Source: a virus
Lineage: Duplodnaviria > Heunggongvirae > Uroviricota > Caudoviricetes
Direction: 5' to 3' (one strand)
DNA length: 59,077 nucleotides
Virus record (IMG/VR): IMGVR_UViG_2690316267_000014
Below, piece by piece: positions 42,001 through 45,000 of the stretch. Every line of letters begins with the position of its first letter. Within the stretch, counting starts at the first letter, position 1. Made by a program: the position numbers.

Positions 42001-45000
42001 TCGCGTAATTCGTTTTTTTCAATTTTAAAGTAATGCTTTCCGGGCATGAATCGCGTCGTGTTGTTCAGAAAGTTATCAGAAATGTTTTTGATTTTTGTTC
42101 CGTAAAGGTGAGCCAACAGTTCAGTAGTAATTACGGGGATCTGGTTATAGGTAACAGGGGAAAGGTTTTCGACAGAAATTTGAACAGCCATAATGACCTC
42201 GCGTTTCGATAATTTTTACCTCGCCACCGTCAGGTGCTAATCATCGTGGTGGCGAACTGTGCGGGGTTAGCACTACCGGTCGAAACATCCGGCGAGCCTT
42301 TCGGCTCCCCCACACAGCCCGCCATAAATCGCGAATGTGACTGTGCTTAGCGCATAAAAAAACCGCCAGCGCGGTTATGCACCGTTTCGATATCCGGGGT
42401 GCTAATCCCGACGCCAGGTCTTGCTGGCGCGTGAGGAATATAGCCCCGAACACGCGACGTTGTCAAACTGATGGCATTGCAGATCCCTACGCAATGTAAC
42501 ACTATGTGTTATACATTAATAACGGAACAAAAAATGCGCATTTTTAAAAACGCCTGGTTTGAGCGATTTGCACGCAAAACAAAATATCCGACCAATCACT
42601 GCGCGAAATTGTTAAACAGGCTGATAACGGGCTTATCTCAGCAAACCTGGGTAACGGCGTTATCAAGCAACGTCTGCCACGAGTCGGTGGCGGCAAATCT
42701 GGCGGTTATCGCACAATCATTTTCTATCGCGTCGGCACAAGGGCCTTTTTCGTATATGCATACGCAAAAAATGAACGTGAAAATATAACCGCTACTGCGG
42801 AAAGTGCATTTCGGAAGGCGGCTCCTCACGTACTCAATCTAACAGATGAACAACTGGCACAACTGATTCTACAGGGTCAGTTTACGGAGGTACCCAATGA
42901 GTAAAAATTACCGCAGTGATGCGCTTGCATCCGTACATGAAATGATGGAATCGCTTCATGATATCGGCGCAGTAACGAAACAGACTATGCGAGAATTCGA
43001 TGAAACTTGTCTCCAGCCAGCGCCGGTAATGTCTCCGGAAAGGATCCGTGCACTGCGCGAACGAGAGCATCTGTCTCAACCTGTTTTTGCCAGATACCTC
43101 AACGTCAGTAAAAACCTGATATCAGACTGGGAACGTGGTGTAAAACGGCCGGGAGGTGCCGCTCTTCGCCTTCTTTCAGTCGTAGAGAAAAACGGGATCC
43201 AGGTAATATCATGATACTCCAATACAACAAAACCCGCCGAAGCGGGTTTTCATTAGAAGCACCTTTAGTTTTGCTGTTCTATTTTAAGCTTGATAGTTTC
43301 ATACAAAACAATAGTTGCGCCTGTTTTACATAATTCCCGGCTGTCATACGCACGAGACCAATAACACAACCAGTTCTCGAGATCTTCTCGAGTATAGGTT
43401 TTGCAGGCCAGTCCCTCTGCCATTTCCACGATTTCATCGCCTGGTGCTGTTAACTCATAGCCATTCAACAACAAGAAGACATAACCAGCCATCATAGCTG
43501 TTCGTTTGTTTGCATTAGCAAATGGATGATTCTGAATCAGACTTTCAATCAATACTGATGCCAGTACAAACATGTCATTAGTCTGTTCATACCATCGAAC
43601 CATGCTGGGACGAGACTGAGAAGAACTTAAATTATCAACACTCAGCACACTAACAGGTTCATCTGGTGTTTGAAGCTCAATTAAAAGGCGATTAATTTCG
43701 GTAAGATCATCAAACGAAAGGTAGTGCACTCCTTCAACAATCTCAGCCATAGAGCACAATACCCATCATTACACTTTTGAAAGTTCTTCCATTGCCTTCT
43801 CGTAACGAGAAAAACCGAAATCGAAAGCATTTTTCACCTGCTCACGATGAGTGCAATTTTCATCGATAGCCGGGCGCGGAGCTGCCACAACGCTTTTATC
43901 GCGAGGGGGAATAGTCAATCGCGGGTGTTTTTTTAGTGCGTAGCTCATTGGGTGTACCCTTACTTCTCCGTCCTGTTCTTTAACAAAAATCAAGTCAATA
44001 CAAAATTAGTCAGGCTAATGTTGTTAGCATAGCCTAATACCAATCGTATTCACAACCACAGTAAGTGAAAAAACCCGCCGAAGCGGGTTAAGTGCGGGTG
44101 CGTTGAGGATGCCTGACACATCAGAGGTGGCGAGGGATTTCTCCCTCGCCTGGTCTCTTACTCCTCAGGTTCGTAAGCTGTGAAGACAGCAACCTCCGTC
44201 TGACCGGTTCGGATTCGTACCTCGCAGAGGTCTTTCCTCGTTACCAGTGCCGTCACTACGACGGTAATACAGATGACGATCAGGGCGACTAACATCGCCT
44301 TTTGCTGCTTCATAGCCTGCTTCTCCTTGCCTTTCGGCGCGTAAGAGGCTAACCTACATGTGTCTAGCATGAAATTGGCCTCAGATTAATGTTAGGCGTC
44401 TTGCAGGACGCGTAATGTTAACTGGGGCTTTTCTCTGTCTGCCTTACGGTGGCATGCCCGAGGCAGACAGCCTCAAGCACCCGCAGCAATTCTACTTAAC
44501 TCTCGCTTTACCGCAAACCGTTTTTACCCGATATGGGAATTCCCATATCGTAATGAATTCAGTTCCCTAGTCGATCCATCAAAAACACAACCAGGCAGTA
44601 AACGCCCACAACAGCAATAACAGCCAGCGCACCTTCCATTGCCAGTGATATATCATCCGACATATTCCCTCCTTTGGTGTTAATCCCGGCGAACGTTTTT
44701 ACCCCCACCGACAAATAACATATACTAAAAAGGTGATAGCCATAGCAACGCCTGTAATTGCAAATGCTTCAGGCCAGTTCATTGGCGCACCTCCTGCGGC
44801 GGTTCTGGTAGCGGCATCCAGTCGGTTACATTGCGGCTCTGTGTTTCGAAAAATTCATCACCATCACGGACTACATCAAAAAACTCACCGTCTCGATATT
44901 GCGCATAAAGAACGAATGCGCCATCACATAAAATAATTACGTGCTGACCGTCATCCGGCATTCGCTCACTACAGCTTATCCAACCATCCAGAGTTACCGG

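What the first reader, a model, noticed from the sequence alone, without database searches (positions are those of the whole stretch)
42356..42466. Promoter-terminator unit upstream of the Rha-like antirepressor gene: candidate small RNA or attenuator
On the minus strand a perfect -35 (TTGACA), an 18-bp spacer and TATATT are followed ~60-75 nt later by a hairpin plus U7 (42356-42376), all before the Rha-like gene start at 42191. The intervening leader contains further hairpins. This would yield either a ~75-nt RNA or an attenuated leader controlling antirepressor expression. The unit lies opposite the promoter region of the divergent toxin gene.
Basis: seen in the sequence. Interest (0 to 1): 0.4.

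Follow-up and report, generated by a model that had tools for sequence, protein, structure and literature searches.

The report
IsrK small RNA heading antirepressor switch
The promoter-terminator unit is an unannotated copy of the known prophage small RNA IsrK, which, together with a C4 antisense RNA just downstream, forms a well-studied RNA switch controlling a phage antirepressor gene, so it is real but ordinary.

Summary
On the minus strand, TTGACA-18 nt-TATATT (42466-42437) is followed by a 75-nt unit that ends in a hairpin plus U7 (42376-42356). That unit matches Rfam isrK (RF01394) over the full model at 69.9 bits (cutoff 50). The "further hairpins" in the leader are a full-length C4 antisense RNA (RF01695, 42329-42245, 75.1 bits). 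The downstream gene is not Rha. It is an ORF6N/P22_AR_C antirepressor, 80% identical to Gifsy-1 AnrP. So this is the isrK-C4-antirepressor module characterised in Salmonella Gifsy-1, and it is homologous to the P1 immI (c4-icd-ant) leader.

The two C4 recognition sequences (a' GUGCUAA, b' UGUUUCGA) are complementary to sites in IsrK (a1, b1) and to a second pair next to the antirepressor ribosome-binding site (a2, b2). These three copies co-vary across 12 reference modules and 48 independent viral-contig modules.

Most likely mechanism: C4 blocks antirepressor translation at a2/b2. Terminated IsrK carries a1/b1 and competes for C4, relieving the block. Terminator read-through supplies both C4 and the mRNA.

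Novelty is low: this is an unannotated member of a known family.

The parts
42461..42466 (-). -35 hexamer TTGACA of the isrK promoter
   Evidence: One search gives an 11/12 consensus match and one search shows the pattern is unique in the window. TTGAC sits at the same position in 11 of the 12 isrK homologs (TTGATT in Stx2_14744), and P1 has its own annotated TTGACC -35 for the c4 promoter. It corresponds to the PisrK deleted and tested in Gifsy-1 (PMC4825925).
42437..42442 (-). -10 hexamer TATATT; the predicted transcription start is G at 42430, 7 nt downstream
   Evidence: GCTATATT is identical in Gifsy-1 and the E. coli homologs. The start is inferred from position 1 of the Rfam isrK model.
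42356..42430 (-). IsrK small RNA (75 nt): hairpin 1 (42430-42411), hairpin 2 (42410-42395), a single-stranded segment, then the terminator
   Evidence: Rfam RF01394, 69.9 bits against a cutoff of 50, model positions 1-77. Hairpin 1 has 3 pairs with compensatory changes across 12 homologs.
42399..42405 (-). a1 site UUAGCAC in the loop of IsrK hairpin 2, complementary to C4 a'
   Evidence: It is exactly complementary to a' at the same position (IsrK nt 26-32) in 12/12 reference modules and fully paired in 47/48 IMG/VR modules. The homologous G28/G31 pairs were verified by mutation in Gifsy-1.
42383..42390 (-). b1 site UCGAAACG, complementary to the C4 b' loop
   Evidence: The cognate pair ranked best in 12/12 and 15/17 tests; permutation 0/20000.
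42356..42376 (-). Intrinsic terminator of IsrK: stem AACCGC/GCGGUU, loop GCUG, then U7
   Evidence: The GC core is short (about -6.4 kcal/mol), similar to the Gifsy-1 terminator, which is known to be partly read through.
42245..42329 (-). C4-type antisense RNA. By alignment to the annotated P1 c4, the mature form is predicted at about 42323-42248.
   Evidence: Rfam RF01695, 75.1 bits against a cutoff of 45, full length. Fold -49.1 kcal/mol, z = -5.95.
42280..42287 (-). b' recognition sequence UGUUUCGA in the loop of the second C4 hairpin
42267..42273 (-). a' recognition sequence GUGCUAA in the C4 junction
42234..42240 (-). a2 target UUAGCAC, 5 nt 3' of C4, sitting in the loop of an alternative hairpin (arms 42256-42248 and 42228-42220)
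   Evidence: 100% paired, 5 of 7 pairs compensatory.
42202..42209 (-). b2 target UCGAAACG, ending 1 nt before the Shine-Dalgarno GAGG (42200-42197) of the antirepressor gene
   Evidence: plus the sequence.
41526..42191 (-). Antirepressor gene (221 aa): ORF6N N-terminal domain plus P22_AR_C domain; an AnrP homolog
   Evidence: Pfam PF10543 E = 2.4e-20 and PF10548 E = 8.3e-07. 80% identity to Gifsy-1 AnrP over 144 aa. RefSeq calls it an 'ORF6N domain-containing protein'.
41502..41521 (-). Terminator-like hairpin directly after the antirepressor stop codon; the probable end of the module
   Evidence: 8-bp stem, GC-rich, T-run. Its function is inferred.

Best explanation
The unit is the isrK gene of an isrK-C4-antirepressor module, the lambdoid-prophage version of the P1 immI c4-ant control region. 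A strong sigma-70 promoter starts transcription at about 42430. Most transcripts stop at the terminator (42376-42356), giving the 75-nt IsrK RNA. A fraction reads through and yields a leader that contains the C4 antisense RNA (42329-42245) followed by the antirepressor mRNA. C4 carries two recognition sequences, a' and b'. They pair with a2 (just 3' of C4) and with b2, which ends 1 nt before the antirepressor Shine-Dalgarno. That pairing blocks ribosome binding and keeps the antirepressor silent in the lysogen. IsrK carries a second copy of the same two sites (a1, b1), and so competes for C4. In cis it sequesters the C4 part of the read-through transcript. In trans, the abundant short form displaces or titrates C4. 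When IsrK is in excess the antirepressor is translated, which pushes the prophage towards induction. What is shown here: the family identities, the folds, the site positions, and their co-variation. What is shown in the Gifsy-1 homolog: terminator read-through, trans-activation of the antirepressor by IsrK, and the a1:a' base pairs. What is inferred: that this copy is expressed, that C4 is processed, and that the block acts directly at the antirepressor RBS rather than through an upstream ORF.
For: isrK and C4 both exceed their Rfam cutoffs over the full models. The tandem isrK-C4 arrangement occurs in all 12 related loci, including Gifsy-1 itself and APSE-8, where GenBank already annotates isrK, C4 and the a'/b' sites. 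P1 has c4-a1b1 and C4, plus a sub-threshold isrK-like leader at 35 bits, E = 3e-6. The a' core is exactly complementary to a1 and a2 in 12/12 modules, across 9 distinct sequences. Both pairings are 100% paired, with 5 of 7 pairs compensatory and a covariation score of 0.749 against 0.19 for shuffles. For the b' loop, the cognate partner is the best match in 12/12 tests against IsrK and 10/12 against the leader, with 0/20000 permutations reaching the observed sum. An independent IMG/VR sample replicates this: a':a1 47/48, a':a2 45/48, b cognate 15/17 and 12/17. The full leader folds with the IsrK a1/b1 segment paired to the C4 a'/b' segment, z = -5.6, which matches Gifsy-1 'structure A'. In Gifsy-1, G28/G31 with C162/C159 are pairs inside a1:a', and they were confirmed by compensatory mutations. 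Trans IsrK raises anrP translation 139-fold (PMC4825925). Competition between a1/b1 and a2/b2 for C4 was proposed for P1 (Weinberg 2010 supplement citing Citron & Schuster 1990). The antirepressor is 80% identical to AnrP.
Against: No expression data exist for this prophage. In Gifsy-1 the authors attribute activation to translation of an upstream 'orf45' coupled to anrP, not to relief of a direct block at the anrP RBS. They also found that over-expressing the C4-like STnc1160 region did not counteract IsrK toxicity. The window's IsrK has a G at loop position 11 where the other 11 sequences aligned have A, and the c4-a1b1 model scores 43.6, just under its 46.7 cutoff. The b':b2 duplex here is only 8 bp (including one G-U) and does not cover the Shine-Dalgarno itself.
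Confidence: 0.8

Rival explanations
1. Gifsy-1 orf45-coupling model applied literally. The short ORF that starts at the AUG inside the C4 5' arm (42325) must be translated, and ribosomes finishing it re-initiate at the antirepressor. IsrK would act by opening that ORF's ribosome-binding site.
For: In Gifsy-1, mutating the orf45 start codons or inserting an early stop reduces IsrK-dependent anrP activation. An SPA-tagged orf45 product is detected, and its stop overlaps the anrP AUG as AUGA (PMC4825925).
Against: In the window this frame is 31 codons and stops 36 nt before the antirepressor ATG. Across the 13 reference modules it ranges from 3 codons to in-frame read-through. Among 44 intact IMG/VR modules, only 5 have the stop/start overlap, 30 stop upstream and 8 run through. 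The Gifsy-1 authors themselves report that the nucleotide sequence is conserved but the amino-acid sequence is not, as expected if the region is conserved as the C4 RNA.
Confidence: 0.1
2. P4-like termination control. C4 pairs with a1/b1 on the nascent transcript and changes the efficiency of the IsrK terminator, so the unit is mainly an RNA-controlled attenuator that feeds back on C4 and antirepressor transcription.
For: The Gifsy-1 authors raise this by analogy with P4 CI RNA and seqA/seqC. b1 lies only 6 nt upstream of the terminator stem. Trans IsrK raises a transcriptional fusion 8-fold.
Against: No conserved anti-terminator helix was found in the IsrK alignment. The 8-fold transcriptional effect is also explained by polarity following translational repression. 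Constitutive STnc1160 did not reduce IsrK toxicity. This idea does not explain why a2/b2 at the RBS co-vary with C4.
Confidence: 0.07
3. IsrK acts mainly as a conventional Hfq-dependent trans-acting sRNA on host mRNAs, and its position upstream of the antirepressor is incidental.
For: Rfam names the family 'isrK Hfq binding RNA'. It has the hairpin-plus-U-tail 3' end typical of Hfq-binding sRNAs.
Against: The variable parts of IsrK (a1, b1) track the linked C4 in every module tested. That is not expected if the target were a conserved host gene. No host target is known from the papers read.
Confidence: 0.03

Closest known systems
IsrK / orf45 (STnc1160) / anrP locus of Salmonella prophage Gifsy-1 (Hershko-Shalev et al. 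2016, PMC4825925)
   Same: The same Rfam families occur in the same order and spacing: isrK 77 nt, about 25 nt spacer, C4, about 53 nt, then the antirepressor ATG. The promoter -10 context GGGGCTATATT is identical. The terminator strength is similar. The antirepressor is 80% identical.
   Different: The specificity determinants differ: window a = UUAGCAC and b = UCGAAAC, against Gifsy-1 a = UUGGCGU and b = UCACCG. The orf45 frame is 31 codons and is not coupled to the antirepressor start. The antirepressor C-terminal domain is P22_AR_C. There is no isrJ downstream. The genomic setting also differs: the module lies between a TA cassette and ninB rather than directly next to the Q-like antQ.
Bacteriophage P1/P7 immI region: a1/b1 - c4 antisense RNA - a2/b2 - icd - ant1/ant2
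   Same: The architecture and logic are the same. C4 has the same fold, with a' in the junction and b' in the second hairpin loop. The target pairs are duplicated upstream and downstream, with the distal target at a ribosome-binding site.
   Different: P1 places the small icd gene between C4 and ant, and b2 overlaps the icd Shine-Dalgarno. Here the antirepressor itself follows. The P1 antirepressor belongs to the ANT/KilAC family. The P1 leader scores only 35 bits on isrK and has a weaker terminator-like hairpin. P1 has a second, C1-controlled promoter.
Hamiltonella phage APSE-8 isrK - C4 - Bro-N antirepressor, as annotated in GenBank LR794148
   Same: The isrK and C4 tandem lies upstream of an antirepressor-type gene, with annotated a' and b' regions.
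   Different: It fronts a Bro-N family protein and has different a/b sequences.
Phage P4 CI RNA with seqA/seqC
   Same: A processed small RNA from a leader pairs with complementary sites upstream and downstream of itself. The Gifsy-1 authors cite it as a structural analogue.
   Different: P4 CI causes premature transcription termination of replication genes. No sequence or Rfam relationship to P4 was detected here.

Membership tests
isrK sRNA (Rfam RF01394) | Covariance-model score at or above the curated gathering score (50 bits) over the full model | tested here: met
   69.9 bits, model positions 1-77, 42430-42356 minus strand.
isrK sRNA (Rfam RF01394) | Two 5' hairpins followed by a Rho-independent terminator | tested here: met
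   MFE and centroid folds. The consensus fold has 3 compensatory pairs in hairpin 1. Terminator scan.
isrK sRNA (Rfam RF01394) | Own sigma-70 promoter immediately upstream | tested here: met
   11/12 consensus match, unique in the window. Its position is conserved in the homologs. Promoter activity itself was not measured.
isrK sRNA (Rfam RF01394) | Lies upstream of the orf45/STnc1160 region and an AnrP-type antirepressor, and its middle part is complementary to that downstream RNA | tested here: met
   C4 at 42329-42245 and the AnrP homolog at 42191-41526. a1:a' and b1:b' complementarity. Cis pairing appears in the leader fold.
isrK sRNA (Rfam RF01394) | Accumulates as a ~75-nt RNA with partial terminator read-through; binds Hfq | not testable with these tools
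   Needs Northern or RNA-seq analysis and Hfq co-IP in a lysogen.
P1 immI-type C4 antisense RNA system | C4 RNA fold (Rfam RF01695, cutoff 45 bits) | tested here: met
   75.1 bits, full length. Fold z = -5.95.
P1 immI-type C4 antisense RNA system | a' and b' complementary to a2/b2 between c4 and the regulated gene, with the distal site at the ribosome-binding site | tested here: met
   a2 at 42240-42234 is an exact 7-mer match. b2 at 42209-42202 ends 1 nt before the SD GAGG. Co-variation.
P1 immI-type C4 antisense RNA system | A second target pair, a1/b1, upstream of c4 in the same transcript | tested here: met
   a1 at 42405-42399 and b1 at 42390-42383.
P1 immI-type C4 antisense RNA system | icd-like small gene between c4 and ant, translationally coupled to ant | tested here: not met
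   There is no ORF between C4 and the antirepressor. Only 53 nt separate them, and the frame starting inside C4 stops 36 nt upstream of the ATG.
P1 immI-type C4 antisense RNA system | C4 released from the precursor by processing (RNase P in P1) | not testable with these tools
   The conserved GCCACC 3' end is present. The RNase P step is recalled from the P1 literature and was not checked here.
c4-a1b1 motif (Rfam RF03163) | Score at or above the gathering score (46.7 bits) | tested here: not met
   43.6 bits at 42443-42391, E = 1e-9. The copy in PhiR12_3, which differs by one base, scores 47.4 and passes. So this is a near-threshold miss caused by the A-to-G change in the hairpin-1 loop.
Rha phage regulatory protein (Pfam PF09669), for the downstream gene | Phage_pRha domain match | tested here: not met
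   Only ORF6N (PF10543) and P22_AR_C (PF10548) match. A true Rha protein behind another isrK-C4 module (L009) scores 1.2e-25 on PF09669 in the same run.

The most novel reading that the evidence does not exclude
IsrK, the c4-a1b1 motif and the P1 a1/b1 leader are one element, and Gifsy-1 'orf45' is simply the C4 RNA. If so, the general mechanism of these modules is an anti-antisense decoy: IsrK titrates C4, which otherwise occludes the antirepressor RBS. The two short recognition sites (a and b) reassort independently, giving a combinatorial RNA specificity code. That code would decide which co-resident or superinfecting prophages can trigger each other's antirepressors. Seven a types and 21 b loops were seen in 29 combinations in the IMG/VR sample. 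The window's type (a' GUGCUAA, b loop AUGUUUCGA) is one such specificity.
Probability: 0.5. Interest if true: 0.4.

Novelty: already known. Interest (0 to 1): 0.2.

Why it matters
For this window it matters mainly as annotation. A 250-bp stretch that RefSeq and GenBank leave blank encodes two regulatory RNAs that probably gate an antirepressor, and so gate prophage induction, in a lambdoid E. coli prophage. More broadly, sequences related to this stretch (promoter, both RNAs and the first codons of the antirepressor) occur in 561 of 5426 complete E. coli genomes and in many Stx-converting phages. The comparison made here also links three separately curated entities: Rfam isrK, Rfam c4-a1b1/C4, and Gifsy-1 orf45/STnc1160. 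It suggests that the P1-style direct block at the ribosome-binding site, rather than orf45 coupling, is the conserved core of the mechanism. None of this changes the verdict that the finding itself is a known kind of element.

Tried and rejected
(1) Long-region RNAduplex energies between C4 and IsrK or the leader gave the cognate pair as best in most rows, but the conserved flanks made them noisy. I replaced them with anchored core comparisons.

(2) The IMG/VR pattern scan returned many chance matches in GC-rich coding DNA. These were filtered out by requiring a C4 core downstream.

(3) I tried to read Lobocka et al. 2004 (the P1 genome paper) for the role of a1/b1, but it is not held. I used the Weinberg 2010 supplement instead.

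(4) A simple stand-alone attenuator with no trans-acting RNA was considered and rejected, because a1/b1 co-vary with the C4 loops and the Gifsy-1 homolog acts in trans.

(5) A coding function for the 31-codon ORF inside C4 was considered and rejected because the frame is not conserved.

(6) 'Rha-like' as the family of the downstream gene was rejected by Pfam.

(7) No isrJ-like RNA was found downstream of the antirepressor.

(8) No protein database, structure-prediction or metagenome searches were run. The RNA-family and annotated-genome evidence already settled the identity.
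Full report
**1. Observation**

On the minus strand the window reads TTGACA (42466-42461), an 18-nt spacer, then TATATT (42442-42437). This was the best promoter-like site in the 3-kb scan, at 11/12. The pattern TTGACA-N16-18-TATANT occurs once in the 59-kb window, against 0.02 expected from shuffles. Seven nucleotides downstream begins a 75-nt segment that ends in the hairpin AACCGC-GCUG-GCGGUU plus U7 (42376-42356). The next ORF starts at ATG 42191.

**2. Identity**

A scan of the whole window against Rfam at gathering thresholds places isrK (RF01394) at 42430-42356. 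It covers model positions 1-77 at 69.9 bits, against a cutoff of 50. It also places a full-length C4 antisense RNA (RF01695) at 42329-42245, at 75.1 bits against a cutoff of 45. A sensitive scan adds the c4-a1b1 motif (RF03163) overlapping the 5' half of isrK. That scores 43.6 bits, just under its 46.7 cutoff.

C4 alone folds into the canonical three-way shape (-49.1 kcal/mol, z = -5.95). IsrK alone folds into two hairpins plus the terminator.

The downstream protein is not Rha. Pfam gives ORF6N (E = 2.4e-20) plus P22_AR_C (E = 8.3e-07). It is 80% identical over 144 residues to AnrP, the antirepressor behind isrK in Salmonella prophage Gifsy-1.

**3. Related loci**

The 391-bp region has matches in 253 phage records, mostly Stx-converting phages, and in 561 of 5426 complete E. 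coli genomes. It is 99.7% identical to phage PhiR12_3. The surrounding 8 kb is 99.5% identical to a prophage of E. coli AST198, where RefSeq annotates only the CDSs.

Rfam finds isrK followed about 25 nt later by C4 in all 12 related loci. These include:
- Gifsy-1 itself, where C4 occupies the position of the published orf45/STnc1160.
- Hamiltonella phage APSE-8, whose GenBank record already annotates isrK, C4 and the a'/b' regions upstream of a Bro-N antirepressor.

P1 has c4-a1b1 and C4 above threshold. It also has a full-length but sub-threshold isrK-like leader (35.1 bits, E = 3e-6) that includes a terminator-like hairpin and U-run.

The same RNA module precedes ORF6N, Rha, Bro-N and ANT-family antirepressors in different phages. 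The promoter hexamers are conserved in position across the homologs.

**4. Anatomy and co-variation**

I use P1 nomenclature, taken from the P1 record. The sites in the window are:

| Site | Sequence | Window coordinates | Location |
|---|---|---|---|
| a' | GUGCUAA | 42273-42267 | C4 junction |
| b' | UGUUUCGA | 42287-42280 | loop of the second C4 hairpin |
| a1 | UUAGCAC | 42405-42399 | loop of IsrK hairpin 2 |
| b1 | UCGAAACG | 42390-42383 | IsrK single-stranded segment |
| a2 | UUAGCAC | 42240-42234 | 5 nt past C4 |
| b2 | UCGAAACG | 42209-42202 | ends 1 nt before the SD GAGG (42200-42197) |

- **a sites, reference set.** Across 12 non-redundant modules the 7-nt a' core was defined only by a conserved anchor. 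It is exactly complementary to IsrK positions 26-32 and to a site 1-7 nt past C4 in every case, although nine different sequences occur.
- **a sites, formal count.** Both pairings are 100% paired, and 5 of 7 pairs show changes on both sides. The covariation score is 0.749, against 0.19 for shuffles, with 0/500 shuffles reaching it. Slid registers reach at most 50% paired. One caveat: a2 was located by searching for the complement of a', so that count is partly circular. a1 was taken by position and is not.
- **b sites, reference set.** These were scored using loop nucleotides and fixed windows only. The cognate partner was the best of 12 in 12/12 tests against IsrK and 10/12 against the leader, with 0/20000 permutations reaching the observed sum.
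- **Independent sample.** I scanned IMG/VR with only the invariant frame of IsrK hairpin 2. After chance hits were removed, 48 distinct modules remained. In these, a':a1 is fully paired in 47 and a':a2 in 45. The exceptions are truncated or hybrid copies. The b cognate ranks first in 15/17 and 12/17 tests, again with 0/20000 permutations.
- **Reassortment.** Seven a types and 21 b loops occur in 29 combinations in the IMG/VR sample. The window's own combination was seen in four distinct modules.

**5. Link to experiments**

In Gifsy-1, PisrK drives both the short IsrK and a read-through isrK-orf45-anrP transcript. The long transcript is translationally silent. IsrK supplied in trans raises anrP translation 139-fold and transcription 8-fold. 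This leads to antQ expression, growth arrest and prophage induction (PMC4825925).

The silent "structure A" depends on pairs G28-C162 and G31-C159, which were confirmed by compensatory mutations. Indexing the Gifsy-1 transcript shows these are base pairs inside the a1:a' duplex: a1 spans 26-32 and a' spans 158-164.

The window's 251-nt leader folds the same way, with the IsrK a1/b1 segment paired in cis to the C4 a'/b' segment (z = -5.6).

For P1, c4 RNA represses Ant synthesis in trans (PMC8546580). It was also proposed that a1/b1 compete with a2/b2 for C4 and so allow ant expression (Weinberg 2010 supplement citing Citron & Schuster 1990). The Gifsy-1 paper compares IsrK with P4 seqA/CI rather than with P1 c4. 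A 2025 review lists IsrK and c4 as separate entries.

**6. Mechanism proposed for this window**

- The promoter fires at about 42430.
- The modest terminator has a GC core of about -6.4 kcal/mol, like that of Gifsy-1. It releases IsrK from most transcripts.
- Read-through produces C4 and the antirepressor mRNA.
- C4 pairs with a2 and b2 and blocks the antirepressor ribosome-binding site.
- IsrK presents a1 and b1 with a short CCGG match between them, so its match to C4 is nearly continuous. The predicted duplex energy is -33.9 kcal/mol, against -23.2 for the leader. IsrK therefore competes for C4 and de-represses the antirepressor.

I favour a direct block at the antirepressor RBS over the orf45-coupling route described for Gifsy-1. 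The frame that starts at the conserved AUG in the C4 stem is 31 codons here and stops 36 nt before the ATG. It ranges from 3 codons to in-frame read-through in the reference set. Only 5 of 44 intact IMG/VR modules have the stop/start overlap. [quoted passage not shown]

Three things remain inferred: expression of this copy, processing of C4, and the direct block.

**7. Rivals**

- Orf45-type coupling. See section 6 for the evidence against it.
- P4-like control of the IsrK terminator by C4. I found no conserved anti-terminator, and this idea does not explain the co-variation of a2/b2.
- A host-directed Hfq sRNA role. The variable parts of IsrK track the linked C4, which argues against a conserved host target.

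Each is given a low probability.

**8. Comparison and novelty**

The element passes the tests for isrK and for the C4 system. It lacks an icd-like gene, and the c4-a1b1 model falls 3 bits short of its cutoff. That shortfall comes from a single A-to-G change in the hairpin-1 loop, which the otherwise identical PhiR12_3 copy lacks.

It is a member of a curated, experimentally characterised family, so the novelty class is "already known". The modest added value has four parts:
- The annotation itself.
- The identification of IsrK with c4-a1b1 plus a terminator.
- The identification of orf45 with C4.
- The evidence that the a/b sites form a reassorting specificity code.

**9. Verdict**

Interest is low (0.2).

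Noticed in passing
window 42532-42900 (+), lesion near 42576-42580: The divergent RelE/ParE-family toxin gene has a 1-nt deletion in an A-run compared with the intact copy in E. coli SCU-104, so it is frameshifted. Phage PhiR12_3 has the same lesion. The downstream HTH antitoxin gene (42897-43214) is intact.
   Followed up: yes
window 42256-42248 with 42228-42220 (-): The 3' arm of the C4 basal stem (UUCGCCACC) can alternatively pair with GGUGGCGAG downstream, which puts a2 in the loop. This helix is 8-11 bp in 12 of 13 reference modules and 39 of 44 IMG/VR modules, with compensatory changes. It is mutually exclusive with the base of the C4 stem, so it may be a processing or presentation switch.
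   Followed up: partly
L013 (Gifsy-1) 34131-34214 (-); window 42230-42325 (-): The published Gifsy-1 'orf45'/STnc1160 region coincides with a full-length Rfam C4 hit. The reading frame that starts in the C4 stem is not conserved in length across homologs (3 codons to read-through).
   Followed up: yes
L060, L079, L095, L040, L084 (IMG/VR contigs): A few modules are hybrids in which a1 or a2 no longer matches a' (L060, L079, L095), or are truncated by rearrangement or insertion (L040, L084). If expressed, the hybrids would be mis-wired switches.
   Followed up: partly
Rfam families RF01394 and RF03163, e.g. window 42356-42443 (-): isrK and c4-a1b1 overlap wherever both are reported (the window, sub-threshold for c4-a1b1, plus five isrK loci), and the P1 c4-a1b1 site overlaps a sub-threshold isrK hit. 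Yet isrK is not placed in clan CL00128 with C4 and c4-a1b1. They appear to describe the same element with and without the terminator.
   Followed up: partly
window 42420 (-), IsrK position 11: The window's IsrK has G in the hairpin-1 loop (CAAGAC) where the other 11 aligned sequences have A. This lowers the isrK score from 74.3 to 69.9 and drops c4-a1b1 below its cutoff.
   Followed up: partly
window 39035-39240 (-), 44308-44482 (-), 53971-54029 (+), 814-899 (+): Other Rfam hits above threshold: STnc100 downstream of the Q antiterminator gene, a sok antitoxin RNA next to a hok-like ORF (44158-44370), the lambda cIII thermoregulator, and sRNA-Xcc1.
   Followed up: no
window 41502-41521 (-): A strong terminator-like hairpin lies directly after the antirepressor stop codon. 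The isrK-C4-antirepressor unit therefore has its own promoter and terminator, like a moron inserted in the nin region. In PhiR12_3 the same unit sits in a different context, near a methyltransferase gene and the integrase gene.
   Followed up: partly
window 43265-43993 (-): A death-on-curing (Doc) family toxin gene with a small upstream ORF lies next to the RelE/ParE cassette. With the hok/sok locus, that makes three toxin-antitoxin loci within about 2.5 kb.
   Followed up: no
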